64,000 nt of DNA from an uncultured Methanosarcinales archaeon (GTDB lineage: Archaea; Nanobdellota; Nanobdellia; Woesearchaeales; ARS49). Location: positions 6,932-70,931 of the forward strand of contig CAZWVL010000008.1 in the NCBI GenBank assembly GCA_964637115.1, given 5' to 3'. Of the stretch, positions 38,674-50,171 are shown piece after piece. How positions within the stretch are numbered: position 1 is the first letter of the stretch; each line of letters opens with the position of its first letter. The notes below the pieces were generated by a model. The model had not been told where the DNA came from. It saw only the letters and a program-made list of their open reading frames with translations, and ran no database searches. Made by a program: the position numbers and the translations under genes.

Positions 38674-38898
38674 GCAAACTAAAAGTTCTCATGTTCGGAT
38701 GCTCATCAAACCTTTGCAAAAGGTTTGATCTAAAGCACTCAAGCGGGATTTCCGCTGCGCTACAATCCCGCGACATGTCGGAAATGCTTTGCATTTCCGA
38801 GCATGCTCGGAAATCTTTGATTTCCGACATACCAAAAGCCGTCCCGGCCGCATGGGAGGCAAGAACATGAGCAAACTAAAAGTTCTCATGTTCGGATG
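38670..38898 (+). mobile_element. Hairpin-rich insertion (38702-38866) flanked by 32-bp direct repeats of the glycosyltransferase start
   Basis: ATGAGCAAACTAAAAGTTCTCATGTTCGGATG at 38670-38701 and 38867-38898; stacked inverted repeats between them. Confidence 0.75.
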
Positions 38899-40084
38899 GG
38901 AATTCCCACCATTCAAATCAGGAGGACTAGGAACAGCATGCTATGGACTGACAAAAGGACTGGCGCGAAACGGGTGTGAAGTAACATTTGTCATGCCAGT
39001 AACGCCAGAAGGAGCAAAAGCCAAGTTTGTGAAATTGGTTGGCTCTTCCAACATTGCAAGGAACGTCAAAATAAGAAAAGTCGAAAGTCCGCTGATGGCG
39101 TATATGACTTCATCATCTTATGAAGAACACATAACAATCAGCGGCAACAAGAAAAAACACGTCTACGGAAGAGACTTGTTTGAAGAAGTGCAGCGTTATG
39201 CAGCATTGGCAAAATACATTGCAAAAGAAGAAGAGCATGATATCATCCACGCACACGACTGGATGACCTATCAGGCAGGCATAAATGCGAAAAAAGCCAG
39301 TAAGAAGCCGTTGGTTGTGCATCTGCACGCAACAGAATTCGACAGAACAGGAGAAAATCCAGACGACAGAATCAGCCACATAGAATGGCTTGGACTAAAA
39401 GAAGCAGACAGAATAATCACGAACAGCAACTACACAAAACAAAACATCATCAAGCATTACAAGATACCGGCAGAGAAGATAGACGTCGTGCACTGGGGAA
39501 TTGATGATGTTGACGTTCCATCATTTGACACGCCTCTCAAAAAAGATAAGATAGTGCTCTTCCTGGGAAGAATAACACTCCAGAAAGGACCGGACTATTT
39601 CATAGAAGTAGCCAAGAAAGTTCTTACATACGAGCCGGATACGAAATTCGTCATTGTGGGAGACGGAGACATGCTGCCACGCATAATTAATCGCGCGGCA
39701 GAACTTGGAATAACAAACAAAATCATCTTCACAGGTGCGTTGTCAGGAGACGATGTTCATAGAGCATTCAAGACAGCAGACATCTATGTAATGCCAAGCG
39801 TCTCAGAACCATTCGGACTTGTTGCACTTGAAAGCCTGAAAAACGGCACTCCAGTCATTATAAGTAAGCAGAGCGGCGTGGCAGAAGTGCTCAAGCACGC
39901 GCTTAAAGTAGACTTCTGGGATATTGATGAAATGACCAACAAGATTGTGGCAGTGCTCAGGCATCAAGCACTCAAAGAGGAACTGAAAGAACACGGCATG
40001 CACGAAGTGCAAAAGTTCAACCTTGACGAGCCAGCACGAAAAGTAAGAGACACGTATCATCACGTCCGAGGTGAGCACGCATGA
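38867..40084 (+). CDS. GT4 family glycosyltransferase (glycogen-related)
   Basis: MFGWEFPP..SGGLGTAC, HAHDW, LGRIT.QKGP, MPSVSEPFG..ALE. Confidence 0.92.
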   Translation: MSKLKVLMFGWEFPPFKSGGLGTACYGLTKGLARNGCEVTFVMPVTPEGAKAKFVKLVGSSNIARNVKIRKVESPLMAYMTSSSYEEHITISGNKKKHVYGRDLFEEVQRYAALAKYIAKEEEHDIIHAHDWMTYQAGINAKKASKKPLVVHLHATEFDRTGENPDDRISHIEWLGLKEADRIITNSNYTKQNIIKHYKIPAEKIDVVHWGIDDVDVPSFDTPLKKDKIVLFLGRITLQKGPDYFIEVAKKVLTYEPDTKFVIVGDGDMLPRIINRAAELGITNKIIFTGALSGDDVHRAFKTADIYVMPSVSEPFGLVALESLKNGTPVIISKQSGVAEVLKHALKVDFWDIDEMTNKIVAVLRHQALKEELKEHGMHEVQKFNLDEPARKVRDTYHHVRGEHA

Positions 40085-41298
40085 CTGACGTCTGCCTCTA
40101 CTTCCAAGTACACCAGCCATTCAGACTGGCACGATACACGCTCTTTGATATTGGAAAACACTCAAGATACTTTGACGAAGCAAAAAACAAAGAAATAATG
40201 CTCAAAGTAGCGCGAAAATGCTACCTGCCAACGAACAGCATAATCAGACAGCTTATTGCGAAACACGACGACTTCAAAGTAACGTACAGCATAACTGGAA
40301 GCGCGCTTGAACAATTTGAAAAATACGCACCCAACGTATTGAGAAGTTTCAAAGAACTTGCAGAAACAGGAGCAGTTGAATTCCTAACAGAAACAAGCAA
40401 CCATTCACTCTCCGCGCTTGCGGATAAAGATGAATTTACTTCACAAATAAAAGAACACCAGAAATTAATCAAGAATTACTTTGGACAAAAGCCCAAGATA
40501 TTCAGAAATACAGAATTAGTTTACAATAATGAGATTGCCAAAACTGCAGAACAACTTGGTTTCAAAGGCATACTCGCAGAAGGATGGGACTCAATACTAG
40601 GATGGCGAAGCCCCAACTACGTCTACAAGGCAGCAGAAACGCGCAAAATGAGATTGCTGCTCAAGAACTACCGGCTTTCAGATGATGTGGCATTCAGATT
40701 CTCCAATAAACACTGGAACAGCTGGCCATTAACAGCAGAAAAGTACGCAGGATGGATAGCGCCCATACTCGGAGACAGCATCAACCTGTTCATGGACTAT
40801 GAAACATTCGGAGAGCACCAATGGGAAGACACAGGAATATTCAACTTCCTCAAACACTTGCCGGCTGCACTGAAGAAACACAACATAAGCTTCAAACATC
40901 CCAGCGAACTGCTGAAAATACGGCCAAAAGAAGAACTCGACATCCAGCAGACAATCAGTTGGGCAGATGTAGAAAGAGATACGAGCGCATGGCTCGGCAA
41001 CAAAATGCAGCAAAGCGCGCACGCACAGATTTACTCAATTCGAAAAGACGTGCTTGCAAGCGGAGACAGAGAATTACTTGCTTCGTGGAAAAAACTTACG
41101 ACAAGCGACCATTTCTACTATATGTGCACCAAATGGTTCAACGATGGAGACGTGCACAAATATTTCAGCCCATACGATACCCCATATGACTGCTTCATCA
41201 ATTACATGAACATATTGCAAGATATGACGCTCAGACTCAAAAATAAACAAGGACTGTTTGAGTCCATTAAAAGATTTGTCAAAGAGGTGAAGTTATGA
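40081..41298 (+). CDS. GH57 alpha-amylase
   Basis: YFQVHQP.RL, FRNTEL, LFMDYETFGEHQW, SWAD.ERD.SAW, SDHFYYMCTK. Confidence 0.93.
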   Translation: MTDVCLYFQVHQPFRLARYTLFDIGKHSRYFDEAKNKEIMLKVARKCYLPTNSIIRQLIAKHDDFKVTYSITGSALEQFEKYAPNVLRSFKELAETGAVEFLTETSNHSLSALADKDEFTSQIKEHQKLIKNYFGQKPKIFRNTELVYNNEIAKTAEQLGFKGILAEGWDSILGWRSPNYVYKAAETRKMRLLLKNYRLSDDVAFRFSNKHWNSWPLTAEKYAGWIAPILGDSINLFMDYETFGEHQWEDTGIFNFLKHLPAALKKHNISFKHPSELLKIRPKEELDIQQTISWADVERDTSAWLGNKMQQSAHAQIYSIRKDVLASGDRELLASWKKLTTSDHFYYMCTKWFNDGDVHKYFSPYDTPYDCFINYMNILQDMTLRLKNKQGLFESIKRFVKEVKL

Positions 41299-41672
41299 AA
41301 CGAACAAAACAAAGACGCGTCAAATCAAAAATCAGGAAAACAAGACCTTCCCACAAGCCAAAAACAACCGTACACGTGACCATAACACGAAAAGTTTTAG
41401 GCAAAACACCGGAAAAATACAGTTTCAACCTGCCAGACGGCAGAAAACTGAGAAGCGTGTATGAACTGATAGACGAATTAGAGACTATGAGTGAGGAAAA
41501 CTTCAGGCATTACGTGACTGAAACAGAAAACCACTTTGCCAACTGGATAGAACACGTGTTCAGCGAAAAACACCTGGCAAATGAACTGAGGCACGTAAAA
41601 AACAGGATAGACACGCAAAGAGCGATTTTGAAACATCTTGTAAGAGAACTCATGAAAAAGGCACACGCATGA
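41295..41672 (+). CDS. DUF5752-like domain protein with basic N-terminus
   Basis: PEKYSF.LPDG..L....EL...L..MS...F.HYV....NHFANWI..VF...LA. Confidence 0.75.
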   Translation: MKRTKQRRVKSKIRKTRPSHKPKTTVHVTITRKVLGKTPEKYSFNLPDGRKLRSVYELIDELETMSEENFRHYVTETENHFANWIEHVFSEKHLANELRHVKNRIDTQRAILKHLVRELMKKAHA

Positions 41673-42238
41673 ACTTACGCGACGTTCCGCCAGAAAATGA
41701 ATTTGTACTAATCGGCGGAAGAAAAATCAAGAATATCGCTGAATTAGGCAGAGAACTCAGGCAGATGAGCGATGACATGTTCGCGCATCACGTCACGGAA
41801 CAGAAAAACGACTTTGCCAACTGGATAGAAAAGTGCGTAAAGGATGAAACATTGGGAATATTAGCACGAACGACAAAAGACAAGGAACGCATGGCAGCAA
41901 TTGTTGAAAGAAGAATCAAAGAACTAACACAGCCAAAAATCATCAGAACCGCACAGCAGACAATGCAGCAGCCAAGCATTGTCAGAACAAAAAATGTGAC
42001 CATGCTTAAGTTTGCGCACGAACAAATGCCTGCCATAACAAAACCTCAAAAGCAAATAATACACACACCGCACAAAACGGTGCTCAAACTGCAGCACGAA
42101 CAGCCATTAAAAACTGAAATTTACGTTCACGAGGTTAACAAACACCACCACGGGGCAGCATTGCTAATAGCGCATTTAGTGCTCGGGATTGTCGTAGGAG
42201 TAGCAATCGCTGCCCTGGTGCTGGCGTTTAATACATAA
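41669..42238 (+). CDS. DUF5752-like domain protein with C-terminal TM helix
   Basis: PPENEF.L.GG...MSDDMFAHHV...KNDFANWI; hydrophobic C-terminus. Confidence 0.75.
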   Translation: MNLRDVPPENEFVLIGGRKIKNIAELGRELRQMSDDMFAHHVTEQKNDFANWIEKCVKDETLGILARTTKDKERMAAIVERRIKELTQPKIIRTAQQTMQQPSIVRTKNVTMLKFAHEQMPAITKPQKQIIHTPHKTVLKLQHEQPLKTEIYVHEVNKHHHGAALLIAHLVLGIVVGVAIAALVLAFNT

Positions 42239-42274: not shown

Positions 42275-43234
42275 ATGGTGTACGACGTTATCAGCGTAGG
42301 CGGAGCAAACATAGACGTATTCATCACTACAAAAAGCAAAGATGTAGAAATAGAAAAGATACACGCACACGAAGACGTGTGCATGCCCATCGGCGCCAAA
42401 ATACTGATTGATACGCTTGTTACAGATACGGGAGGCTCAGGAGTCAACACCGCAACAGCATTCGCACGGCTCGGCTTGAAAGCAGCAGTTGTCAGCAAAC
42501 TTGGACAAGATATGAATGCGGACGTAGTTCTGAACAAATTAAAAAAAGAAAAAATAGATTTCCTTGGAGTGAAAGCAGCGGGACACACAGGATACTCTGT
42601 AATTCTGTCAGGACTGCACAAGAATAGAACGATTCTCACGTTCAAAGGCAACAATAACTTGATGACAACAAAAGACATTCAATGGAAAAAACTCAAGACA
42701 AAATGGTTCTATTTTGGAACGCTGCTTGGACAGAGCTGGAAGACACAATGCGCGATTGCGCAATATGCAAAAAAGAACGGCATTAAACTTTTGTTTAACC
42801 CGTCACTCTACTTGGCAGAGAAAGGAATGAAATTCCTGAAGCCAATACTTGACGCGTGCACAGTACTCATCCTGAACAAAGAAGAAGCACAGGCGCTTAC
42901 CGGCATGAAGGGATATACCAAGCAAATCCTGGAAAGACTGCAGAAACACGTCCCTATCGTAGTCATTACAGACGGACCAAGAGGAGCGCTCGCGTACAAC
43001 GGAATCCAACACTATTCAATCGTTCCAAAAGACGTGCCAATTGCCGACACAACAGGAGCAGGAGACTCATTTGCAAGCGCTTTCCTGGCAGCACTGATTG
43101 ATGGACAAGACATTCCGACTGCTTTAAAATGGGGAGCTGCAGAAGCAAACAGCGTTATACAGCACTACGGCGCGACTAATATTCTGCTCAACAAAAAAGA
43201 AATTGTAAAACAATCAAATAACGCGGAGGCATAA
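42275..43234 (+). CDS. PfkB-family carbohydrate kinase (possible phosphofructokinase)
   Basis: GGSGVNTA..ARLG, ILNKEEA, VITDG..G, DTTGAGDSFA. Confidence 0.92.
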   Translation: MVYDVISVGGANIDVFITTKSKDVEIEKIHAHEDVCMPIGAKILIDTLVTDTGGSGVNTATAFARLGLKAAVVSKLGQDMNADVVLNKLKKEKIDFLGVKAAGHTGYSVILSGLHKNRTILTFKGNNNLMTTKDIQWKKLKTKWFYFGTLLGQSWKTQCAIAQYAKKNGIKLLFNPSLYLAEKGMKFLKPILDACTVLILNKEEAQALTGMKGYTKQILERLQKHVPIVVITDGPRGALAYNGIQHYSIVPKDVPIADTTGAGDSFASAFLAALIDGQDIPTALKWGAAEANSVIQHYGATNILLNKKEIVKQSNNAEA

Positions 43235-43235
43235 A

Positions 43236-44150
43236 ATGTTGGTAACACTCAAAAAAATCCTGAAAGAAGCAAACAAAGGCACGTACGCAGTCGGAGCATT
43301 CAACATAAACAACATGGAAATCGCGCAGGCAGCAATTAATGCAGCTGTTGCGCAGAAATCACCAGTCATTCTGCAAACATCTGAAGGAGCAATTGCGTAT
43401 GCAGGAACGGAATACCTGAAAGCACTCGCATATGCTGCAGCAAAACAAAAAGTTCCTGTTGCATTGCACTTAGACCACGGACGAGACATGGATATTATCA
43501 AGAAATGCATCAAAGCGGGCTGGACCGGGATAATGTACGACGGCAGCCACCTGCCATTCGAAGAAAATATCAAGAATACCAAAAAAGTGGTGCAATGGGC
43601 GCACAAGGCAGGCATCGGAGTAGAAGGAGAACTCGGCACAATCGGCGGAGCAGAAGAGAAAATCATTGCACGCGAAATAGTCTACACTGATCCAGTTGCT
43701 GCTGTAGAATTTGTAAAGAAAACTGGAGTTGATGCTCTTGCTGTCGCAATCGGAACGTCTCACGGTGCATACAAGTTTGAAGGAACAGCACGTTTGGACA
43801 TACATTTATTGAAAGTCATCAAGGAAAAATTGCAGATGCCTTTAGTGCTGCATGGTGCATCCGGAGTACCGGCATGGCTGGTAACGCAAGCAGTCAGATA
43901 TGGAGCAGAACTAGGCAAGCCAGAAGGAGTGCCAGATGATCAGATACGCATTGCAGTGCAATCAGGAATCAACAAAGTCAACACTGATACTGATTTAAGA
44001 TTAGCTTTTGACGCCGCAGTCAGGCAGTTCCTGAAGGAAAAACCGTCAGACTTTGATCCAAGACACATTTTAGCGCCTGCGCGCACTTTAATGCAGCAGA
44101 TTATCGAACACAGAATACAATTGTTCGGGAGCAATGGAAAAGCGTTATGA
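43236..44150 (+). CDS. fba: Class II fructose-1,6-bisphosphate aldolase
   Basis: AVGAFN, LHLDHG, VEGELG, AIGTSHGAYK, LVLHGASG, KVNTDTD. Confidence 0.96.
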   Translation: MLVTLKKILKEANKGTYAVGAFNINNMEIAQAAINAAVAQKSPVILQTSEGAIAYAGTEYLKALAYAAAKQKVPVALHLDHGRDMDIIKKCIKAGWTGIMYDGSHLPFEENIKNTKKVVQWAHKAGIGVEGELGTIGGAEEKIIAREIVYTDPVAAVEFVKKTGVDALAVAIGTSHGAYKFEGTARLDIHLLKVIKEKLQMPLVLHGASGVPAWLVTQAVRYGAELGKPEGVPDDQIRIAVQSGINKVNTDTDLRLAFDAAVRQFLKEKPSDFDPRHILAPARTLMQQIIEHRIQLFGSNGKAL

Positions 44151-44263
44151 AATGCGTAGAAAACCAATACAAAATGCACGCATTTCATAACGTGCTCGGA
44201 AATCGCTTTCAACAATCATCAAACCAAGAGGTGAATGGTTTCGCACATGCGATTTCCGACACG
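44143..44263. repeat. Double-hairpin element related to 38774-38830
   Basis: CGTTATGAAATGCGT/ACGCATTTCATAACG, then CGTGCTCGGAAATCGC/GCGATTTCCGACACG with one bulged base. Confidence 0.75.
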
Positions 44264-44577
44264 TGAAGCCGATTTTAGTATATATTACTGTGCCAGATGA
44301 AAAGGACGCGGAAATGATAGGCGCAGCATTGGTAAAGAAAAAACTAGCTAGCTGCGTGAACATTATTTCTAACATTCACTGCCAGTATATCTGGAAAGGA
44401 AAATTCCAGCACGATAAGGAAGCAGTAATGATGGTGAAGACTTTTGACACGAAATACAAAGCATTGGAGAAAGTCGTTAAGAAAATTCATTGTTATGAAA
44501 ATCCGTGCATTGTTGCAATGCCGATAACAAAAGGAAGCAAAGAATATCTATCTTGGAGTAGGAGGGCAGTAAAATGA
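44263..44577 (+). CDS. cutA: Divalent-cation tolerance protein CutA
   Basis: VYITVP..LV.KKLASCVNI..Y.W.G..E..MM.KT..H.YE.P.I. Confidence 0.9.
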   Translation: MKPILVYITVPDEKDAEMIGAALVKKKLASCVNIISNIHCQYIWKGKFQHDKEAVMMVKTFDTKYKALEKVVKKIHCYENPCIVAMPITKGSKEYLSWSRRAVK

Positions 44578-45089
44578 CTTTTTGGAGAACTTTAGAATAT
44601 ACACTAATCTGTATGCTTTTGTTTAGCGTAATACTCTCATTATCATTCATGGAAATACGCACATTTTTTATCATAGTGAGTTTGCTTGCAGGACTGGTCT
44701 TCTACTATCTTTTCAAAGAAATGCCAACAGATGAAGCAATGCAAGAAATCAGCATTGTCTACATTCCAGCATCCATCGTGGTTATCATTGAAGGCATGTT
44801 TACAAATCTGATGAAATATACTATTGAAACGGCAGCATCATTACGACCCGATCCTCAAATTGGATCGCTTGCGACGATATTTGCACAAAGAAACATAATA
44901 TTCGAGCTAATAGTACTTCTAGTCGGACTTTTCGGCCCATTCATAGCATTCAAGCTGTTAAAAGCCCAACAAATAGAATACAAAAGACTTATTTGGAATA
45001 TTGCAGCCGTATTCATCGCATACTTAATCGCCCTTCTTATTGTTACCTTTGTCATCATGCCCAGATTGATAGGAGGAGCGCCATTATGA
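44574..45089 (+). CDS. Hypothetical multi-TM membrane protein
   Basis: Hydrophobic; ATGA-coupled on both sides. Confidence 0.7.
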   Translation: MTFWRTLEYTLICMLLFSVILSLSFMEIRTFFIIVSLLAGLVFYYLFKEMPTDEAMQEISIVYIPASIVVIIEGMFTNLMKYTIETAASLRPDPQIGSLATIFAQRNIIFELIVLLVGLFGPFIAFKLLKAQQIEYKRLIWNIAAVFIAYLIALLIVTFVIMPRLIGGAPL

Positions 45090-45529
45090 AACAAACAGTG
45101 CACATAGGAGCAGACCACGCAGGATTTGTATTAAAAGAACACCTGAAGAAGTTCTTGCAGAAGAAAGGCTACACTGTGAAAGATTTGGGAGCACACAAAC
45201 TCATCAAAGGAGACGATTATCCAGATTATGCAGAAAAAGTTGCGAAAGCCATCCAGAGAGGAGGAAAAGGAATACTTCTTTGCGGTTCAGCAGAAGGAAT
45301 ATGCATAGCAGCAAACAAATTCAGAAAAATCAGGGCAGTACCAGTCTGGACGCTGCAAAATGCGAAATTAAGCAGACAGGACAATGACGCGAACATATTG
45401 TGCCTGAGCGGATGGGAGCTTTCAAAGAAAAAAGCAGAACAGATTTCATTAACTTGGCTGAAAACGCCATTTTCAGGAGAAAAAAGGCACGTTCGAAGAA
45501 TCAAGAAGATAGCGAGATTGGAAAGATGA
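45086..45529 (+). CDS. rpiB: Ribose-5-phosphate isomerase B
   Basis: GADHAG, DYPDYA, CGSAEG..IAANK, NDANILCL, RH.RRI. Confidence 0.94.
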   Translation: MKQTVHIGADHAGFVLKEHLKKFLQKKGYTVKDLGAHKLIKGDDYPDYAEKVAKAIQRGGKGILLCGSAEGICIAANKFRKIRAVPVWTLQNAKLSRQDNDANILCLSGWELSKKKAEQISLTWLKTPFSGEKRHVRRIKKIARLER

Positions 45530-46140
45530 CAGAGATAATTCCAGGAATACTGGTGCACACACTGAAAGAACTCAAGCAAAAACTGCACTTATTGAGCTGG
45601 GCAAAAAAAGTGCATATTGACATAATGGACGGTAAGTTCGTTCCAAACAGGACAATATCGGCATTAACACTGAAGAAGGCAATACCTAAGATGGACATGC
45701 AAATACATTTGATGGCGTACAAACCACACAAATACGTGAACATTTTTTCAAGAATGGGAGCAAAAGAATTGATCATTCATGCAGAAGCGTCAAAAGAGAC
45801 GCCAAAAGTGCTTGAATACATCCGCGAAAAAGGAATGAAAGCAGGAATTGCATTCAACCCAGAAACAAAAATAGGACAGCACGCGCTTATTCATGCAGAT
45901 TTGGCGCTCGTGATGACGGTGCATCCAGGATTCAGCGGGCAGACGTTTTTGAAAACGCCTGTACGAAAGATTGCAGAGATAAAAAATCACAATCCACTGC
46001 TTCAAGTGGGTGTTGACGGAGGAATTAATTCGCAAACGTGCAGATTTGTCAAAGAAGCAGATTTTGCTATTGCAACACACGCTGTTATAGAAGCAGAAGA
46101 ACCAAGAAAAGCGTGGCTTGAACTCAAAAAAAGATGTTAA
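45526..46140 (+). CDS. rpe: Ribulose-phosphate 3-epimerase
   Basis: HIDIMDGKFVPN, HLM, MTVHPGFSGQ, VDGGIN. Confidence 0.93.
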   Translation: MTEIIPGILVHTLKELKQKLHLLSWAKKVHIDIMDGKFVPNRTISALTLKKAIPKMDMQIHLMAYKPHKYVNIFSRMGAKELIIHAEASKETPKVLEYIREKGMKAGIAFNPETKIGQHALIHADLALVMTVHPGFSGQTFLKTPVRKIAEIKNHNPLLQVGVDGGINSQTCRFVKEADFAIATHAVIEAEEPRKAWLELKKRC

Positions 46141-46141
46141 A

Positions 46142-46879
46142 ATGGACTTACAGAAAAAAGCAAACATAATCCGGCAAGACATTATCAGAATGATAAGCCG
46201 GGCAGGCAAAGGAAACACGGCGCCAAACTTGGGCATGGCAGACATATTTGCCACACTATATTTCGGAGCGTTAAAACACAATCCAAGACAACCAAAATGG
46301 GAAGAGCGCGACAGACTATTTGCAGCAGGCCAATATTCACCAGCCTGGAGAACAACATTAGCGCATTCTGGATATTTCGCAAAAAAAGACTTGTTTCAAG
46401 GGAGCCAGCACACCATGCCAGGAAGCCTTGGCTTGGCTGTCGGCAGCGCGCTCGCAGCCCAAATAGACGGCAAAGAACACCAAACTTACTGCATCTTAAG
46501 CGACCACGACCTGCACAAAGGAGAAGCGTGGGAAGCACTATTATTAGCGGGAAAACATAAACTTGCAAATCTAACTCTCATAATCGACAGAAGCAATATG
46601 CAATCAGACGGATATATTGAGAACATAATGCCTCTTGAGCCATTGCGCAGCAAACTTGAATCATTCAACTGGAACGCCATTGAAGTAGACGGCCACAACC
46701 ACCAGCATATCAAAGAGGCAATAACAGAAGCCAAAAATTCGCATAAACCAACAGTAATTCTTGCCCACATCATACCCGGAAAAGGAGTTAATTTCATTGA
46801 GAACAAAACTGAATGGTACGAAAAACCTCCAACAAAAGAAGAAGAAAGCGCAGCATTAACAGAGTTACAAAAACAATGA
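46142..46879 (+). CDS. Transketolase N-terminal subunit homologue with degenerate active site
   Basis: P.WEERDR, GSLG, EAWEAL, K.ESFNW....VDGH, GKGV.F.E; catalytic motifs altered. Confidence 0.85.
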   Translation: MDLQKKANIIRQDIIRMISRAGKGNTAPNLGMADIFATLYFGALKHNPRQPKWEERDRLFAAGQYSPAWRTTLAHSGYFAKKDLFQGSQHTMPGSLGLAVGSALAAQIDGKEHQTYCILSDHDLHKGEAWEALLLAGKHKLANLTLIIDRSNMQSDGYIENIMPLEPLRSKLESFNWNAIEVDGHNHQHIKEAITEAKNSHKPTVILAHIIPGKGVNFIENKTEWYEKPPTKEEESAALTELQKQ

Positions 46880-47982
46880 AAACAAGCAAAGACGGATACG
46901 CAGAAGCACTTACAGAGCTCGCCAAACAAAAAGAAGACATGGTTGTGCTAAGCGCAGATACTGCTCTGAAAACAGGCATCAAGCATTTTGCCGACAAGCA
47001 CCCAAACAGATTCATCCAGTGCGGCAAGGCATCACAAAATATGATGAGCGTAGCAGCAGGAATGGCAATGGAAGGCAAAATAGCGTTTGCAACAGGCTGC
47101 ATAACAATGGGAAAAAACTGGGACCAGATACGAATGATAGCACACGAAAGATTAAACGTCAAAATTGTAGATGCAGACGAAACACTCGAGGATACTGCAT
47201 TAGCACGCGCACTGCCAGCCATGACCATAATTATTCCAGCAGACTACAATGAAGCAAGGAAAGCAACCCTGGCAGCAGGAACAATGAAAGGTCCTGTGTA
47301 TCTAAAGCTGACAAATAATTCATCCGTAACCACTGAAAAAACGCCATTCACAATAGGCAGAGTAGAAATACTGCGCGCAGGAAAAGACTGCACCATACTG
47401 GCGTGCGGTTCAGCAGTAAAGGAAGCACTGCTCGCTGCTGAAAGACTTGCACAACAAGAAATAGAATGCACCGTGCTTAACTGCCACACAATACAGCCGA
47501 TAGACAAACACGCAATAATCAGCAGTGCACGCATAACTGGATGCATTGTTGCAGCAGCAGAAAGCAATGCACTTGGAAGCATAACAGCAGAAATAATAAG
47601 CCAGAACTCGCCAGTGCCCTTTCGCACAGCACCAGCAGAGCAATCAAACATTGCCAGAGCAGCCAAAGAAGCAGTACTGCTAAAATGCGAAGGTGTTTGC
47701 CCAGAAATCCCTGAAGAACACGGCAAACTACTCGTTTCCCAAATTCATCCAGAATCATACTTCAAACTGCACGGCGGCGGAACAATCAAAAGCATACCAG
47801 GATTAAAGAAAGCACTATTGGAAATGAACAACGAAACATTCTCGCACCACTGCAACGAACACAAAAACGACTTCAGCATATGGGTAGAAGACGTTTTCAA
47901 AGAACCAACACTCGCACACCAGATTGAAAAAACAAAAACACGCGTTGGAATGGCACTAACCATCACAAGGTGGCTGATGTGA
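46876..47982 (+). CDS. Transketolase C-terminal subunit homologue (degenerate) fused to a DUF5752-like domain
   Basis: VVLSAD, P.RF..CG...QNMM..AAG.A..G, GPVY, F.IG...R.G.D; tail PESYFKL.GG...F.HH....NDFS.W..DVF. Confidence 0.85.
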   Translation: MKTSKDGYAEALTELAKQKEDMVVLSADTALKTGIKHFADKHPNRFIQCGKASQNMMSVAAGMAMEGKIAFATGCITMGKNWDQIRMIAHERLNVKIVDADETLEDTALARALPAMTIIIPADYNEARKATLAAGTMKGPVYLKLTNNSSVTTEKTPFTIGRVEILRAGKDCTILACGSAVKEALLAAERLAQQEIECTVLNCHTIQPIDKHAIISSARITGCIVAAAESNALGSITAEIISQNSPVPFRTAPAEQSNIARAAKEAVLLKCEGVCPEIPEEHGKLLVSQIHPESYFKLHGGGTIKSIPGLKKALLEMNNETFSHHCNEHKNDFSIWVEDVFKEPTLAHQIEKTKTRVGMALTITRWLM

Positions 47983-48662
47983 AAATAGCCGTCTATGGAA
48001 AAACACCGGAAAGCAAAATAGAACTGCTAAAAGCAGCCAAGAAAGCAGGATTTACTTATGATGAGAAAAAGCCAGACTTAGTCATTTCTTACGGCGGAGA
48101 CGGAACTTTCCTCTGGGCGGAAAGAAAATACCCAGGAATTGCAAAAGCGCTTTTCAGATACAGCAAAGTCTGCAAAAAATGCCACAACCTGCCAATCGAT
48201 CATGCACTTTCGCTCATCAAAAAGAAAAAATACAAGATAATAACTCACAACAAACTCGAAGCAAGAGTTGACAAGACAACATTGCTGGCGACAAACGACA
48301 TTGTTGTCAGAAATGCCATGCCAACCCACGCAATACGATTCAAACTTGAAATAAACGGCAAAAAAATCAATGAAGAGTTTATCGGCGACGGCATTGTAGC
48401 AGCCACGCCATTCGGCTCAACAGCCTATTTCCACAGCATTACCAAAAAAACGTTTGAAAAAGGCATTGGAATTGCTTTCAACAATACCACAGTGCTGCAA
48501 AAACCGCTTTTATTACCGGAAAAAGCACGCGTACTGCTGACATTAACACGCGGAGAAGCATTCGTAGTAGGAGACAATGAGCCAAGAATGATCGTATTAA
48601 CACCTGGAAAAAGCGTTACGATAAAAACAAGCCAACAAAAAGCAAAACTGTTATCTTTCTAA
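47970..48662 (+). CDS. NAD kinase
   Basis: GGDGTFL, ND, GDGIVAATPFGSTAY. Confidence 0.88.
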   Translation: MADVKIAVYGKTPESKIELLKAAKKAGFTYDEKKPDLVISYGGDGTFLWAERKYPGIAKALFRYSKVCKKCHNLPIDHALSLIKKKKYKIITHNKLEARVDKTTLLATNDIVVRNAMPTHAIRFKLEINGKKINEEFIGDGIVAATPFGSTAYFHSITKKTFEKGIGIAFNNTTVLQKPLLLPEKARVLLTLTRGEAFVVGDNEPRMIVLTPGKSVTIKTSQQKAKLLSF

Positions 48663-49279
48663 ATAGACTTAATTGCAGGCGGCGCGACCATCTTGGCGCC
48701 CTTAGCAGGCGGATTAAAGTAGTTCGCCTCAGGAATCTGGCCAACAAGCACGACAGGGCCAGGAGAGACGTCCCAGTCGTCAGCCGGCTCCAAAGTCACT
48801 TCAACAAAATCATACGGGTCAAGATAATTGTCAACATGATAATCAAGCTGGCCAACACCGCCAAAGCCCGTCACGAACGTGCCAAGCGACAAACGATAGC
48901 CAGAATCAACGTCAACAAGCCACACTTCAAATTGCGAATCAGTCTGGTCTGAAGCAGGAATGTCTTTTGTTTTTACCTGCACTTGGGCGCGCGGGTAACC
49001 ATACCAAGTAACACTCTTGATTTTTGCAGAACCACGGGCATACATAGGAGCATAACCTCCTCTGCCCACACCCTTGTAGTCTTCAACACCAGGCGGGCCA
49101 AGATAGGCAACAGTATCAATCGTTTGGAAATTCACTCTCGGATCATAATGAGTAACGCGCTGCACACCACCAGTACCATACTTGCGAGGACTGGTAAGAG
49201 GAGATTTATACGTATGCAATGCCACGACCGACAAGCTCAAAATTGCAAGCAATGCCAGGACAATCAGTATTTTCCTCAT
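48659..49279 (-). CDS. Secreted protein with RskA-C-like (anti-sigma-K) beta domain
   Basis: Signal peptide; FEVWLVD...SLGTF...VEVTLEP.....PGPVVL.G. Confidence 0.65.
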   Translation of the reverse strand: MRKILIVLALLAILSLSVVALHTYKSPLTSPRKYGTGGVQRVTHYDPRVNFQTIDTVAYLGPPGVEDYKGVGRGGYAPMYARGSAKIKSVTWYGYPRAQVQVKTKDIPASDQTDSQFEVWLVDVDSGYRLSLGTFVTGFGGVGQLDYHVDNYLDPYDFVEVTLEPADDWDVSPGPVVLVGQIPEANYFNPPAKGAKMVAPPAIKSI

Positions 49280-50073
49280 CTTAACCTCGGATAATAATCA
49301 GGCGGTGTTCTTATCTCAGTGCGCGCCGGGTTGATAACTCCTGACAATACAATCGTATGAGGACTTGGATCCATACTTGGGAACGGCTCCCTTGTAATCC
49401 AAACCTCATCAAACATATGCGCCAAGCGGGGAATTTGAGTAACCATCTGCAATGTGGGAGGCAGGGTGCTTTTCAAAACGCCAAGGTTCAATGCGTATTC
49501 AGTTTCATAATCAAACAACCAAGCCATGTAGATTTCGTTTTCATCCAATGGCTCAAGATAAAGAGCCTGAATGAAAATCTGGGTTCGCGGATGCGGCTTA
49601 TTCAGACCAGCACCATACTCATTTCCAGTGCTGAACACTCTTGCCGTGCCTTTACCCATAGTTGGCTCAGTCCCGATAATCTGCTCCACAGGACTGTAAG
49701 GAAGCAATTCAACGCTTCTATCCAAGCGCGGATAGCCACGCACTTTAGGATCCCAGTTGCTGATGTGAGCAGGGTCACGACCCTGGTTTGAAAGCGAGTT
49801 GGAATCAAAGTTGAAAACTGATGAGAATGCGCTCTTGCTGCCTGTCTGCGTCAGACGATCAGTCGGACCCTTGGAACCGAAGTTTTGAAATGGTTTAACG
49901 TAGCCAGTGCCAAAGTAACGGTCACGCGTATAAGGATCATAAATTCTTCTGTCTCTGGCAATCTGGCCAGTGTAACTGTCAATATTGTTATCGTAGACTT
50001 GATAGTTGTGAATAGCGAGAACTGAGCCGACCAATAAGAGCGCTACAAGAATAGCACTGGCAAATCTGTTCAC
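49276..50073 (-). CDS. Secreted protein, paralogue of 48659-49279
   Basis: GTG start after GAGGTG; Y.AWL.D....LNLG.L...V.ITREP....P...VL.G. Confidence 0.65.
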   Translation of the reverse strand: MNRFASAILVALLLVGSVLAIHNYQVYDNNIDSYTGQIARDRRIYDPYTRDRYFGTGYVKPFQNFGSKGPTDRLTQTGSKSAFSSVFNFDSNSLSNQGRDPAHISNWDPKVRGYPRLDRSVELLPYSPVEQIIGTEPTMGKGTARVFSTGNEYGAGLNKPHPRTQIFIQALYLEPLDENEIYMAWLFDYETEYALNLGVLKSTLPPTLQMVTQIPRLAHMFDEVWITREPFPSMDPSPHTIVLSGVINPARTEIRTPPDYYPRLR

Positions 50074-50171
50074 AATATACACCTCTTTCAGCTCAATCAT
50101 AGAAAGCGAGCTTTATAAATGTTGTGTATGCCCCGTATAGCCTAATTGTTAGTCACTTCATAGTAGTAAAA

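What the first reader, a model, noticed from the sequence alone, without database searches (positions are those of the whole stretch)
46142..47982. Intact but apparently catalytically dead transketolase pair
Seen: both ORFs are uninterrupted and ATGA-coupled in an rpiB-rpe-tkt-NAD kinase operon, yet key motifs are replaced. Known canonical versus observed: GH (His26) to GN; SKGH to AAGQ; ThDP motif GDGE to SDHD; WH to WY; GIAEQ (cofactor-activating Glu) to GKASQ; the DG.THQ loop is deleted. Systematic loss of catalytic residues without frameshifts points to a maintained pseudoenzyme (scaffold, regulator or partner of an active paralogue) rather than decay. RpiB and Rpe motifs are intact.
Basis: partly seen in the sequence, partly recalled or inferred. 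Interest (0 to 1): 0.75.

Follow-up and report, generated by a model that had tools for sequence, protein, structure and literature searches.

The report
Dead split transketolase kept by selection
A two-gene transketolase in a small sediment archaeon has lost nearly every residue needed for its chemistry, yet selection has kept it intact across a whole clade that also carries a normal transketolase, so it is a conserved dead enzyme whose present job is unknown.

Summary
Window 46142-46879 and 46876-47982 are intact, ATGA-overlapping alpha and beta chains of a split transketolase (TK), set between rpiB-rpe and an NAD kinase gene.

- The same genome (a Woesearchaeota MAG) has an intact fused TKT on another contig.
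- Degenerate pairs occur in 18 same-family genomes. In a quick tree, 26 degenerate or intermediate beta chains form one clade nested among canonical split TKs.
- Former catalytic positions vary or are deleted among orthologues, while canonical sisters keep all of them.
- dN/dS is 0.08-0.3, and dN equals that of the fused TKT in three close genome pairs.
- A fused TKT was found in 16 of 18 genomes with a degenerate pair and in 0 of 11 with a canonical pair.

New here: the beta chain ends in one OrfY/DUF5752-like repeat, a fusion older than the decay. Constraint has moved from the Pyr domain to the TK_C domain. The gene abuts nadK only in the degenerate clade.

The function is unknown. My best guess is a non-catalytic scaffold or regulator. 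This is a new variant of a known kind (pseudoenzyme).

The parts
45086..45529 (+). rpiB (ribose-5-phosphate isomerase B), first gene of the translationally coupled run. Residue 99 of the HND motif is Asp in this genome only.
   Evidence: Pfam LacAB_rpiB 153.3 bits over the full length. PDB alignment to 3HE8. Relatives read HNDAN.
45526..46140 (+). rpe (ribulose-phosphate 3-epimerase). Its start overlaps the rpiB stop (ATGA).
   Evidence: Pfam Ribul_P_3_epim 139.5 bits. The motifs hiDiMDGkFVPN, ihlM, hPGFsGQ and vDGG align to human RPE 3QC3.
46142..46879 (+). Degenerate split-transketolase alpha chain (PP domain, 245 aa). Changes: GH to GN, KGH to AGQ, about 21 columns around GHP..TGSLGQG deleted, GDGE to SDHD, EWH to EWY. 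The Asp of the GDG motif is kept.
   Evidence: Pfam Transketolase_N 95 bits. 6YAK alpha E 9.5e-47 with alignment. Orthologue alignment and site table.
46876..47325 (+). Beta chain residues 1-150: degenerate Pyr domain. GIAEQN is GKASQN, the aromatic pocket is replaced, and the DG.(S/T)HQ loop is deleted. It keeps the helix that packs on the alpha chain.
   Evidence: Pfam Transket_pyr 61.6 bits. 6YAJ alignment. Site table. Predicted interface residues 44-68.
47338..47679 (+). Beta chain residues 155-268: the TK_C domain, the best-conserved part within the degenerate clade.
   Evidence: Pfam Transketolase_C 70 bits. AF2 pLDDT 94-98. Mean pairwise identity is 0.59 against 0.47 for the Pyr domain in 38 crown sequences, the reverse of the canonical set at 0.54 against 0.62.
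47722..47982 (+). Beta chain residues 283-368 plus the stop: one OrfY/DUF5752-like repeat (beta-hairpin and five helices, HHxN..KNDFxxW motif).
   Evidence: Pfam DUF5752 below threshold at 16.3 bits, cut-off 23. Homologues pass the cut-off. AF2 of the domain alone gives pLDDT 93.8. 4CSO OrfY scores Z 9.9, rmsd 2.1 A over 83 residues. The profile hits 4CSO at E 3e-5.
47970..48662 (+). NAD kinase gene, whose start overlaps the 3' end of the beta chain gene. This adjacency was seen only in the degenerate clade.
   Evidence: Pfam NAD_kinase_C 33.3 bits. GGDGT is seen in the translation. nadK lies downstream in 13 of 17 degenerate loci and 0 of 13 canonical loci.

Best explanation
The two genes encode the alpha chain (PP domain) and beta chain (Pyr domain, TK_C domain and one OrfY/DUF5752-like repeat) of a split transketolase that can no longer bind thiamine diphosphate or catalyse ketol transfer. 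The genome's transketolase activity comes from a separate, intact, fused human-type TKT on another contig (G000:C3:142215-144170, minus strand).

The dead pair is not decaying. It has been kept under purifying selection through a whole Woesearchaeota clade (genus level and beyond). It very probably still assembles through the conserved PP:Pyr helix interface. Its constraint has moved from the old active site to the TK_C domain and the OrfY-like tail.

I infer that it now works as a non-catalytic subunit, either a scaffold or a regulator, tied to pentose-phosphate/NADP metabolism, because it is co-transcribed and translationally coupled with rpiB, rpe and nadK.

Shown: loss of catalytic residues, purifying selection, the presence of an active paralogue, and the domain architecture.
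Inferred: no ThDP binding, assembly of the two chains, and a non-catalytic role.
Unknown: the partner or the ligand.
For: 1. Loss of the catalytic apparatus. Searches give residue-level alignments to 6YAK/6YAJ. One search shows canonical sisters (12 N halves, 13 C halves) invariant at the His, Glu, Asp, GDG-motif Gly and loop positions. The 14 degenerate N halves and 17 degenerate C halves read, for example:
- first His: H6 N3 Q2 L1 P1 D1
- second His: K7 Q4 H1 N1 E1
- cofactor-activating Glu: E5, gap4, A3 S2 T1 I1 H1
- Asp, Gly and His of the DG.THQ loop: deleted in 15-16 of 17
Experimental precedent: deleting residues 76-113 of human TKT, which include His77 and His110, abolishes ThDP binding and activity (PMC3485151, passages read). 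The deletion here overlaps that segment, and the His77 equivalent is Gln.

2. Maintenance. Orthologues were found in 14 of 14 other same-genus genomes with no internal stops in the 30 best matches. At least 38 protein clusters at 90% identity show the crown pattern. NG86 dN/dS for the C half is 0.08 (G005-G014, dS 0.50), 0.11 (G003-G011) and 0.215 (G002-G008). For the N half it is 0.15-0.29 in close pairs. dN matches that of the fused TKT in the same genome pairs: 0.040 vs 0.043, 0.087 vs 0.085 and 0.058 vs 0.056.

3. Active paralogue. A 651-aa ORF carries GSGH, SKGH, GHP, TGSLGQG, GDGE, GWHGKP, IAEQN and GEDGPSQMGLED.

4. Complementary distribution in the family. A fused TKT was found in 16 of 18 genomes with a degenerate pair and in 0 of 11 with a canonical split pair.

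5. Single origin with progressive erosion. The 26 degenerate or intermediate beta chains form one clade (SH-aLRT 97) nested among canonical split TKs. Early branches (P0021, P0030, P0033, L020) still keep the Glu and part of the loop (quick tree; sequences).

6. The fold is retained. AF2 of the beta chain gives pLDDT 90.6 and pTM 0.89. The best Foldseek match is 6YAJ, with TM 0.85 on the target and rmsd 1.9 A.

7. Assembly of alpha and beta. The complex model scores 0.85 against a best of 3 controls of 0.00. That mark was reached by 116 of 157 solved complexes and 2 of 215 mismatched pairs. The runs agree in at least 98% of contacts, and the partner's pLDDT is at least 88. My own alignments were used, so the counts hold only roughly. 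A like complex (6YAK) is solved, so the pass may reflect likeness only.

8. Shift of constraint. In 38 crown sequences, Pyr identity is 0.47 and TK_C identity 0.59. In 25 canonical sequences they are 0.62 and 0.54.
Against: - No activity, cofactor-binding or expression data exist. No RNA data could be obtained.
- Two genus genomes with the degenerate pair (G001, 95% complete; G010, 97% complete, unpublished) show no other TK, either with the fused-TKT protein or with PF00456. So either the fused gene lies in assembly gaps or these cells have no active TK at all. The second case would weaken the 'backed up by a paralogue' story.
- The Asp of GDG is kept in 14 of 14 degenerate N halves, and the Mg-binding Asn in 10 of 14. 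Three substrate-phosphate Arg positions are consistently Lys rather than random. Some ligand binding at the old site therefore cannot be excluded.
- dS is 0.3-1.1 in the pairs used, so NG86 ratios are rough. No codon-model test (RELAX or branch-site) was run.
- The clade is monophyletic, so the co-occurrence counts reflect few independent events.
- The tree is the quick one. The careful search never finished.
- The pair in G009 is more eroded (N half truncated, many deletions in the C half) and may be on its way out there.
Confidence: 0.8

Rival explanations
1. Prozyme-like partner. The dead chains pair with the active fused TKT, as human TKTL1 forms heterodimers with TKT, and tune its activity or the ribose-5-phosphate pool. 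This is a special case of the best explanation.
For: The degenerate pair co-occurs with a fused TKT in 16 of 18 genomes. Genomes with a canonical split pair have no fused TKT (0 of 11). The TKTL1-TKT heterodimer that accumulates ribose-5-phosphate is reported in PMC6555833 (only the start of the abstract was seen). TK active sites lie at the PP:Pyr interface, and the helices of that interface are kept.
Against: G001 and G010 carry the pair but no fused TKT was found. The fused TKT sits on another contig and is not co-transcribed. The dead chains are only 30-35% identical to the fused TKT, and the active-site loops that line the dimer interface are deleted. No model of the three-chain complex was possible, because 1264 residues exceed the 1000 limit.
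Confidence: 0.15
2. Neofunctionalised enzyme or ligand sensor. The old pocket now binds another phosphorylated ligand (a sugar phosphate, or a nucleotide such as NAD(P)) and either catalyses ThDP-independent chemistry or reports ligand level to the neighbouring NAD kinase.
For: The Asp of GDG is kept in 14 of 14 N halves. Three phosphate-binding Arg positions are replaced by Lys in 10-14 of 17 C halves instead of varying freely. nadK lies immediately downstream, overlapping, in 13 of 17 degenerate loci and 0 of 13 canonical loci.
Against: Most former pocket positions vary or are deleted independently in different lineages, which is the signature of relaxed rather than redirected selection. The positions newly conserved in the crown lie in the TK_C domain and linker, not in the pocket. 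The Arg-to-Lys changes could reflect AT-biased codon drift. The synteny counts come from one monophyletic clade.
Confidence: 0.1
3. Still an active transketolase with an unusual active site.
For: The overall fold, the PP:Pyr interface and the Mg-binding Asp are kept. The pair sits in a pentose-phosphate operon.
Against: The cofactor-activating Glu is Ser. Both N-terminal His residues, the WH His and the whole DG.THQ loop are gone. The Gly-Pro-Leu segment that contacts the aminopyrimidine is deleted. Human TKT lacking the overlapping 38-residue segment binds no ThDP and is inactive (PMC3485151). Orthologues differ from one another at these sites, which no working active site would tolerate.
Confidence: 0.03
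4. Young pseudogenes that have not yet acquired a stop or a frameshift.
For: Many deletions and substitutions have accumulated, and the G009 copy is further truncated.
Against: ORFs are intact in 18 genomes whose beta chains have diverged to 38-79% identity. dN/dS is 0.08-0.3 and dN equals that of the active TKT. The ATGA coupling and the synteny are kept. AF2 confidence is 90.6.
Confidence: 0.02

Closest known systems
Split-gene transketolase of Carboxydothermus hydrogenoformans (PDB 6YAK alpha+beta, 6YAJ beta4; PMC7661550, start of abstract seen)
   Same: Two adjacent genes encode a PP-domain chain and a Pyr+TK_C chain. It is the best sequence match (E 9.5e-47 and 1.1e-40) and the best fold match (TM 0.85 on the target, rmsd 1.9 A). 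The predicted alpha-beta contact uses the same helices.
   Different: That enzyme is an active alpha2beta2 tetramer with all ThDP and catalytic motifs. The window's pair lacks them, has two loop deletions, and carries an extra C-terminal domain of about 86 aa.
Human TKTL1 and its model TKT-delta38 (PMC3485151, passages read; TKTL1-TKT heterodimer PMC6555833, start of abstract seen)
   Same: A transketolase paralogue kept alongside an active TKT, which lacks invariant residues. It has a deletion in the same PP-domain loop-helix segment that carries the His77 and His110 equivalents. The deletion model folds, but it binds no ThDP and is inactive.
   Different: TKTL1 is a single eukaryotic chain 61% identical to TKT and lacks only 8 invariant residues, according to that paper. 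Here the loss is far wider: the Glu, the GDG Gly residues, the WH His, the DG.THQ loop and the aromatic pocket. The protein is also split in two, archaeal, and fused to an OrfY-like domain.
Canonical split TK with the same OrfY-like tail in sister Woesearchaeota genera (loci L022-L026, L029-L031, L033; P0038)
   Same: Same two-gene layout and the same C-terminal OrfY-like repeat. These are the nearest outgroups of the degenerate clade in the tree.
   Different: All catalytic motifs are intact. No fused TKT was found in those genomes. No nadK lies downstream.
OrfY of Thermoproteus tenax (PDB 4CSO) / Pfam DUF5752
   Same: The C-terminal domain has the same fold (Z 9.9, rmsd 2.1 A, 83 of 86 residues) and the NDFxxW motif (profile E 3e-5). 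Homologues pass the DUF5752 cut-off.
   Different: OrfY is a stand-alone protein with two repeats. Here a single repeat is fused to a TK beta chain. Its function is unknown in both cases. The depositors' label for 4CSO reads 'transcription factor', and I found no paper on it.
The genome's own fused TKT (G000:C3:142215-144170, minus strand)
   Same: Same enzyme superfamily and the same three domains.
   Different: It is a single chain of 651 aa with all motifs intact. It is 30-35% identical to the dead chains, lies on another contig, and has no OrfY-like tail.

Membership tests
Transketolase (active, EC 2.2.1.1) | Three-domain TK fold (PP, Pyr, TK_C) | tested here: met
   Pfam PF00456, PF02779 and PF02780 all score above their cut-offs. 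The Foldseek top hit is 6YAJ.
Transketolase (active, EC 2.2.1.1) | ThDP-Mg motif GDG-X(25-30)-N | tested here: not met
   The motif reads SDHD...DRSN. Only the Asp is kept, and the aligned Asn is Ser.
Transketolase (active, EC 2.2.1.1) | Cofactor-activating Glu of the (I/V)AEQN motif | tested here: not met
   The motif reads GKASQN, so the Glu is Ser. The Glu is kept in only 5 of 17 degenerate orthologues.
Transketolase (active, EC 2.2.1.1) | Catalytic and cofactor His residues (GH, KGH, GHP, WH, THQ) and the Asp of the DG loop | tested here: not met
   They read Asn, Gln, deleted, Tyr and deleted. The residue roles and the E. coli-style labels in my script are recalled. The human numbering comes from PMC3485151.
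Transketolase (active, EC 2.2.1.1) | Measured ketol-transfer activity and ThDP binding | not testable with these tools
   This needs expression and an assay.
Split-gene (alpha/beta) transketolase architecture | Adjacent genes for a PP chain and a Pyr+TK_C chain that assemble | tested here: met
   The genes overlap by ATGA. The complex model scores 0.85 against a best of 3 controls of 0.00. That mark was reached by 116 of 157 solved complexes and 2 of 215 mismatched pairs, counts that hold only roughly with my own alignments. The runs agree in at least 98% of contacts, and the partner's pLDDT is at least 88. The pass may reflect likeness to the solved complex 6YAK.
Pseudoenzyme (conserved catalytically dead homologue) | Clear homology to an active enzyme family, with loss of essential catalytic residues | tested here: met
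Pseudoenzyme (conserved catalytically dead homologue) | Retention under purifying selection across species | tested here: met
   dN/dS is 0.08-0.3. dN equals that of the active TKT. ORFs are intact in 18 genomes.
Pseudoenzyme (conserved catalytically dead homologue) | A demonstrated non-catalytic function | not testable with these tools
   No partner or ligand has been identified.
DUF5752 / OrfY family (C-terminal domain) | Match to PF19027 above the gathering score | tested here: inconclusive
   The domain itself scores 16.3 bits against a cut-off of 23. Its homologues P0121 and P0142 score 43.3 and 46.6 bits. In the Atlas, 25 of 30 hits fall in clusters where 22-50% of members carry PF19027, at score 0.93.
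DUF5752 / OrfY family (C-terminal domain) | OrfY fold and the NDFxxW motif | tested here: met
   4CSO scores Z 9.9, rmsd 2.1 A over 83 residues, and the next chain scores 6.2. The profile of A2 hits 4CSO at E 3e-5 in both repeats.

The most novel reading that the evidence does not exclude
The dead split transketolase is a dedicated regulatory scaffold of DPANN archaea. Its retained TK_C domain and its OrfY/DUF5752 repeat would recruit or control the neighbouring NAD kinase, the fused TKT, or both, coupling the pentose-phosphate pool to NADP supply. The repeat is a promiscuous module also fused to KaiC-like, HerA-like, NACHT, FlaC and CheC-like proteins. It may be anchored here by a clade-specific Cys/His site (C271, C275, H324/H325, C326). 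If so, this would be the first archaeal transketolase pseudoenzyme with a regulatory role, and it would give a first functional handle on the uncharacterised OrfY/DUF5752 domain.
Probability: 0.2. Interest if true: 0.75.

Novelty: new variant of a known kind. Interest (0 to 1): 0.6.

Why it matters
1. Metabolic reconstruction. Reconstructions of Woesearchaeota and other DPANN genomes count 'tktAB' as a working transketolase. The sources name these proteins 'transketolase', 'transketolase family protein', '1-deoxy-D-xylulose-5-phosphate synthase' or 'hypothetical protein'. In this clade that call is wrong. In two genomes (G001, G010) no other TK was found, so the non-oxidative pentose-phosphate pathway may be mis-scored.

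2. A natural series from enzyme to pseudoenzyme. The family contains canonical, intermediate and fully eroded forms, each present next to or without a replacement enzyme. Such series are rare for prokaryotic pseudoenzymes. This one parallels human TKTL1, including a deletion in the same PP-domain segment.

3. A route to function for two poorly understood modules. The strongly constrained TK_C domain and the OrfY/DUF5752 repeat are both of unknown function. The TK_C domain has no assigned role even in active TKs (recalled, not checked here).

Tried and rejected
- Rfam on the whole window gave 0 matches.
- The scan's earlier findings, searched by place, by sequence and by words, returned nothing.
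- Sequencing runs: no RNA holder is listed, and 12 DNA runs from sediment and other metagenomes hold the stretch or part of it. Nothing on expression could be learned.
- The careful IQ-TREE search did not finish in two 300-s calls on one CPU. Only the quick tree (SH-aLRT) is reported. No AU test was run.
- Foldseek of the OrfY-like domain against the PDB gave no match at E <= 0.001, although the top rows were 4CSO (E 0.15). The wide VIA-align search and a sequence profile then supported 4CSO.
- Literature: 'transketolase'+'pseudoenzyme' found 4 papers, judged irrelevant from titles and the starts of abstracts. 'Woesearchaeota'+'transketolase' found 7 papers, of which 6 were listed. The transketolase passages of two were read, and they only list or count TK presence. 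'DUF5752' found 0 papers. 'OrfY'+'Thermoproteus tenax' found 0. In the 'OrfY'/'trehalose'/'archaea' search, none of the 8 papers listed holds OrfY. So I found nothing in print on a dead archaeal TK or on OrfY function in the held library. Subscription journals are not covered.
- A three-chain model with the fused TKT was considered but not run. Its 1264 residues exceed the 1000 limit, and it would pass by homology anyway.
- The idea that a run of conserved Cys in the TK_C domain marks a metal cluster was dropped. Cys at positions 177, 198, 203 and 223 is also common in canonical TKs (0.36-0.52 of sequences). Only C75, C271, C275 and C326 are clade-specific.
- Transaldolase (PF00923) was not found in the own genome, which is 98% complete.
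- Searches failed on my wrong coordinates, and one search failed on a script bug. They were corrected.
Full report
WHAT IS THERE. Window 42275-48662 (+ strand) holds a tight run of genes:
- pfkB-family kinase (42275-43234)
- class II fructose-bisphosphate aldolase (43236-44150)
- CutA (44263-44577)
- a small membrane ORF
- rpiB (45086-45529)
- rpe (45526-46140)
- a Transketolase_N protein (46142-46879, 245 aa)
- a Transket_pyr + Transketolase_C protein (46876-47982, 368 aa)
- an NAD kinase gene (47970-48662)
The two TK genes overlap by ATGA (ATG 46876-46878, TGA 46877-46879). rpe stops one base before ATG 46142. The TK Pfam scores are low for the family: 95, 61.6 and 70 bits.

- GH to GN
- KGH to AGQ
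- GDGE to SDHD
- EWH to EWY
- GIAEQN to GKASQN
- loss of the HaG...DGaSHQ loop

- About 21 alignment columns around GHP...TGSLGQG are gone from the N half.
- The Mg-binding Asn position is Ser.
- The aromatic pocket segment of the Pyr domain is replaced.
- The Ser of the substrate-phosphate motif is lost.

The only cofactor contact clearly kept is the Asp of GDG. The roles of these residues are established TK knowledge that I recall. The human numbering (His77, His110, segment 76-113) is from PMC3485151 (passages read). That paper shows that human TKT lacking the overlapping 38-residue segment still folds but binds no ThDP and has no activity.

The Cys is present, but residue 99 of the HND motif is Asp in this genome, while the 4 of 4 relatives that cover the position have His.

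AN ACTIVE PARALOGUE EXISTS. The window lies in a 1.27-Mb, 98%-complete genome. Names on homologous proteins place it in Candidatus Woesearchaeota. A search of this genome with PF00456 and PF02779 finds one more transketolase, at G000:C3:142215-144170 (minus strand). It is a fused 651-aa ORF of the short, human-like type, carrying GSGH, SKGH, GHP, TGSLGQG, GDGE, GWHGKP, IAEQN and GEDGPSQMGLED. Its last 50 or so codons read X because the bases are withheld.

THE DEAD PAIR IS CONSERVED, NOT DECAYING. Searching 60 related genomes with the beta chain found full-length orthologues (51-79% identity) in 14 of 14 other same-genus genomes and in further genera, with no internal stop in the 30 best matches. 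In every locus that reaches far enough, an N half lies directly upstream.

Aligning them with canonical sisters and tabulating 31 cofactor or catalytic positions gives a clean split. The 12 canonical N halves and 13 canonical C halves are invariant at 25 of the 31 and nearly so at the rest. The 14 degenerate N halves and 17 degenerate C halves are variable or deleted. The first His reads H6 N3 Q2 L1 P1 D1. The activating Glu reads E5, four gaps, A3 S2 T1 I1 H1. The DG.THQ loop is deleted in 15-16 of 17. Different sublineages carry further deletions of their own: the whole AEQN region is missing in L016-L019, and a 29-residue stretch before it is missing in L013-L015. This is what relaxed selection on a dead site looks like. 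It is not what a redesigned site looks like.

The proteins as a whole are nevertheless constrained. Nei-Gojobori dN/dS is as follows:
- C half: 0.08 for G005-G014 (dS 0.50), 0.11 for G003-G011 and 0.215 for G002-G008
- N half: 0.15-0.29 in close pairs

As a control I computed the same for the fused TKT in the same genome pairs. Omega is 0.03-0.15, and dN is practically equal to that of the dead beta chain in three close pairs: 0.043 vs 0.040, 0.085 vs 0.087 and 0.056 vs 0.058. In the G000-G005 pair the dead chain is faster (0.149 vs 0.065).

Searches of the large protein collections add at least 38 clusters at 90% identity with the crown pattern for the beta chain. They also add about 30 short, deletion-bearing N halves.

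EVOLUTIONARY PICTURE. In a quick maximum-likelihood tree of 42 beta chains, the 26 degenerate or intermediate ones form one clade (SH-aLRT 97) nested among canonical split TKs of the same family. The outgroup was the C part of the fused TKT, and columns filled in fewer than 50% of rows were dropped. At the base of the clade sit forms that still keep the Glu and part of the loop (P0021, P0030, P0033, L020). A 20-row crown (SH-aLRT 99) has lost them. The careful search did not finish.

Within the GTDB family (the own genome plus 36 others), the states are complementary:

| State of the split pair | Genomes | Fused TKT found |
|---|---|---|
| Degenerate | 18 (G000-G014, G025, G026, G036) | 16 |
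| Canonical | 11 (G015, G017, G019, G020, G022, G023, G028-G031, G035) | 0 |
| No split pair found | 6 | 6 (fused type only) |
| No TK of either kind found | 2 | 0 |

The two exceptions in the first row are G001 (95% complete) and G010 (97% complete), where PF00456 finds only the dead N half. The clade is monophyletic, so the counts reflect few independent events.

G010 and G023 are unpublished genomes. G010 contributes row L012 to the alignments, tree, site table and dN/dS, and it is one of the two exceptions. G023 is one of the 11 canonical genomes. Without them the counts are 13 of 13 genus genomes with the pair, 16 of 17, and 0 of 10.

The simplest reading is this. Once a fused TKT covered the reaction, the split enzyme's active site was freed to erode, while something else about the protein stayed under selection.

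WHAT STAYED UNDER SELECTION.

(a) The fold. AF2 of the beta chain with 72 aligned sequences gives pLDDT 90.6 and pTM 0.89. The best PDB match is the 6YAJ beta chain (TM 0.85 on the target, rmsd 1.9 A).

(b) The alpha-beta contact. A complex model of the N half with beta residues 1-275 scores 0.85, against a best of 3 controls of 0.00. That mark was reached by 116 of 157 solved complexes and 2 of 215 mismatched pairs. The runs agree in at least 98% of contacts, and the partner's pLDDT is at least 88. The contact uses alpha residues 92-109 and 127-135 and beta residues 44-68. My own alignments were used, so the calibration counts hold only roughly. A like complex (6YAK) is solved, so the pass shows likeness, not proof that this pair binds.

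(c) The TK_C domain. In 38 crown sequences mean pairwise identity is 0.59 for TK_C against 0.47 for the Pyr domain. In 25 canonical sequences the order is reversed, 0.54 against 0.62.

(d) A C-terminal extension, residues 283-368.

THE EXTENSION IS AN OrfY/DUF5752-LIKE REPEAT. On its own it matches Pfam DUF5752 below threshold (16.3 bits, cut-off 23). A full scan of 1.84 billion representative proteins finds 2456 clusters at E <= 0.001. Of the 52 I scanned against Pfam, many carry two copies and pass the DUF5752 cut-off (for example 43.3 and 46.6 bits). Others are fused to KaiC-like and HerA-like ATPases, NACHT, FlaC, CheC-like domains, or to TK beta chains.

AF2 of the domain alone (38 sequences) gives pLDDT 93.8, with a beta-hairpin and five helices. 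An all-against-representatives structural search puts OrfY of Thermoproteus tenax (4CSO) first at Z 9.9, rmsd 2.1 A over 83 residues, and the next chain at 6.2. A sequence profile hits 4CSO at E 3e-5 through the NDFxxW motif in both of its repeats. The ESM Atlas gives a concordant lead: 25 of 30 hits fall in clusters where 22-50% of members carry PF19027.

I found no paper on OrfY or DUF5752. The depositors' molecule name reads 'transcription factor'.

The tail is also present on nine of the canonical split TK loci of sister genera (L022-L026, L029-L031, L033) and on P0038, so the fusion predates the loss of catalysis. Two stand-alone single-repeat proteins lie 4 kb upstream in the window (41295-41672 and 41669-42238), right after a GT4/GT5 glycosyltransferase and a GH57 hydrolase.

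CONTEXT. rpe lies directly upstream in 12 of the 14 degenerate loci that include the N half. nadK lies directly downstream, usually overlapping, in 13 of 17 degenerate loci and in 0 of 13 canonical loci. So the link to NAD kinase arose with, or after, the loss of catalysis. Again this is a single clade.

MECHANISM, AND HOW SURE I AM. I am confident (about 0.8) of three things: the pair is catalytically dead, it is maintained by selection, and an intact TKT supplies the reaction. What it does now is inference. The coupled expression with rpiB, rpe and nadK, the kept alpha-beta interface, and the shift of constraint to TK_C plus the OrfY-like tail together point to a non-catalytic subunit that binds something. 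That could be another protein (a scaffold, or a regulator of NadK or of the fused TKT) or a phosphorylated ligand.

Points that keep a ligand-sensor reading alive:
- The GDG Asp is invariant.
- Three substrate-phosphate Arg positions are consistently Lys (K11, K14 and K10 of 17).

Points against any redesigned pocket:
- Most pocket positions vary or are deleted independently.
- The positions newly fixed in the crown lie elsewhere. C271, C275 and C326 (the HHC motif) are present in 0.74-0.84 of crown sequences and in 0-0.04 of canonical ones. They could form a small metal site tying the linker to the tail. I could not test the geometry.

COMPARISON WITH WHAT IS KNOWN. By architecture and fold this is a split-gene TK, but it fails every chemical criterion for an active TK. 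The nearest functional analogue is human TKTL1. It is a TK paralogue kept next to an active TKT, it lacks invariant residues through a deletion in the same PP-domain segment, and its deletion model is inactive (PMC3485151). It is reported to form heterodimers with TKT (PMC6555833, only the start of the abstract seen).

The archaeal case differs in three ways. Its loss is far more extensive. It is split into two chains. It carries an OrfY-like tail. It also comes with natural intermediates and a clear presence/absence pattern of the replacement enzyme.

I found nothing in print on it. The two DPANN papers whose transketolase passages I read only list or count TK presence, and one of them states that DPANN TKs are bacteria-derived (PMC8407392).

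VERDICT. This is a new variant of a known kind (pseudoenzyme). Interest is about 0.6. It is surprising in its degree of erosion under strong constraint, it is useful as a warning for DPANN pathway calls, and it is a tractable system. Its function remains open.

Noticed in passing
window 45380-45382 (RpiB residue 99): The conserved His of the RpiB HND motif is Asp (QDNDANIL) in this genome only. Four of four relatives that cover the position read HNDAN. I recall this His as the ring-opening residue. The change may be a real variant or a consensus error in the MAG.
   Followed up: partly
window 42275-44150, and the whole own genome: No transaldolase (PF00923) was found in the 98%-complete genome. 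A pfkB-family kinase and a class II FBP aldolase sit just upstream of the rpiB-rpe cluster. This layout would fit a sedoheptulose-bisphosphate bypass of transaldolase (a recalled idea, not tested).
   Followed up: partly
window 38789-42238: A GT4/GT5 (starch-synthase-like) glycosyltransferase (38789-40084) and a GH57 hydrolase (40081-41298) are followed by two small overlapping ORFs (41295-41672 and 41669-42238). Each small ORF carries one OrfY/DUF5752-like repeat, matching below threshold at E 8e-4.
   Followed up: partly
proteins P0121-P0268 (representative library): The single OrfY/DUF5752-like repeat is a widespread, promiscuous module, with 2456 representative clusters at E <= 0.001. It occurs alone, in tandem, or fused to KaiC-like ATPase, HerA-like ATPase with CarboxypepD_reg repeats, NACHT, FlaC and CheC-like domains. 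The Pfam model of 208 positions appears to span two such repeats.
   Followed up: partly
window 47686-47700 and 47845-47853 (beta chain C271, C275, H324, H325, C326): The Cys/His positions CExxC...HHC are specific to the degenerate clade, found in 0.74-0.84 of crown sequences and 0-0.04 of canonical ones. They could form a small metal site between the linker and the OrfY-like domain. The linker has the lowest pLDDT in the model (60-69).
   Followed up: no
L073 (G026:C12) 826-1455 and 1448-2389: G026 carries a separately reduced degenerate pair of 209 and 313 aa. It keeps GDGE but lacks the N-terminal His motifs, AEQN and the loops. It still ends in the OrfY-like repeat. It is not flanked by rpe or nadK.
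   Followed up: partly
L028 / L070 (G009:C21): The pair in G009 is the most eroded of the genus. The N half ends early, and the C half (306 aa, P0039) lacks many segments. The Pfam match reads through several stops beyond the end of the ORF. The pair may be degrading in that lineage.
   Followed up: no
window 48659-50100 (- strand): Two adjacent paralogous predicted secreted or membrane-anchored proteins (206 and 274 aa) have no firm Pfam family. One has a weak RskA_C hit (23.6 bits, below the cut-off). A homologue also lies downstream of the degenerate pair in G026.
   Followed up: no
L001 / L037 (G000:C3), 3' end of the fused TKT ORF: The last 50 or so codons of the fused TKT ORF read X because the bases are withheld (a run of N). 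The true C-terminus and stop of that gene could not be checked.
   Followed up: no
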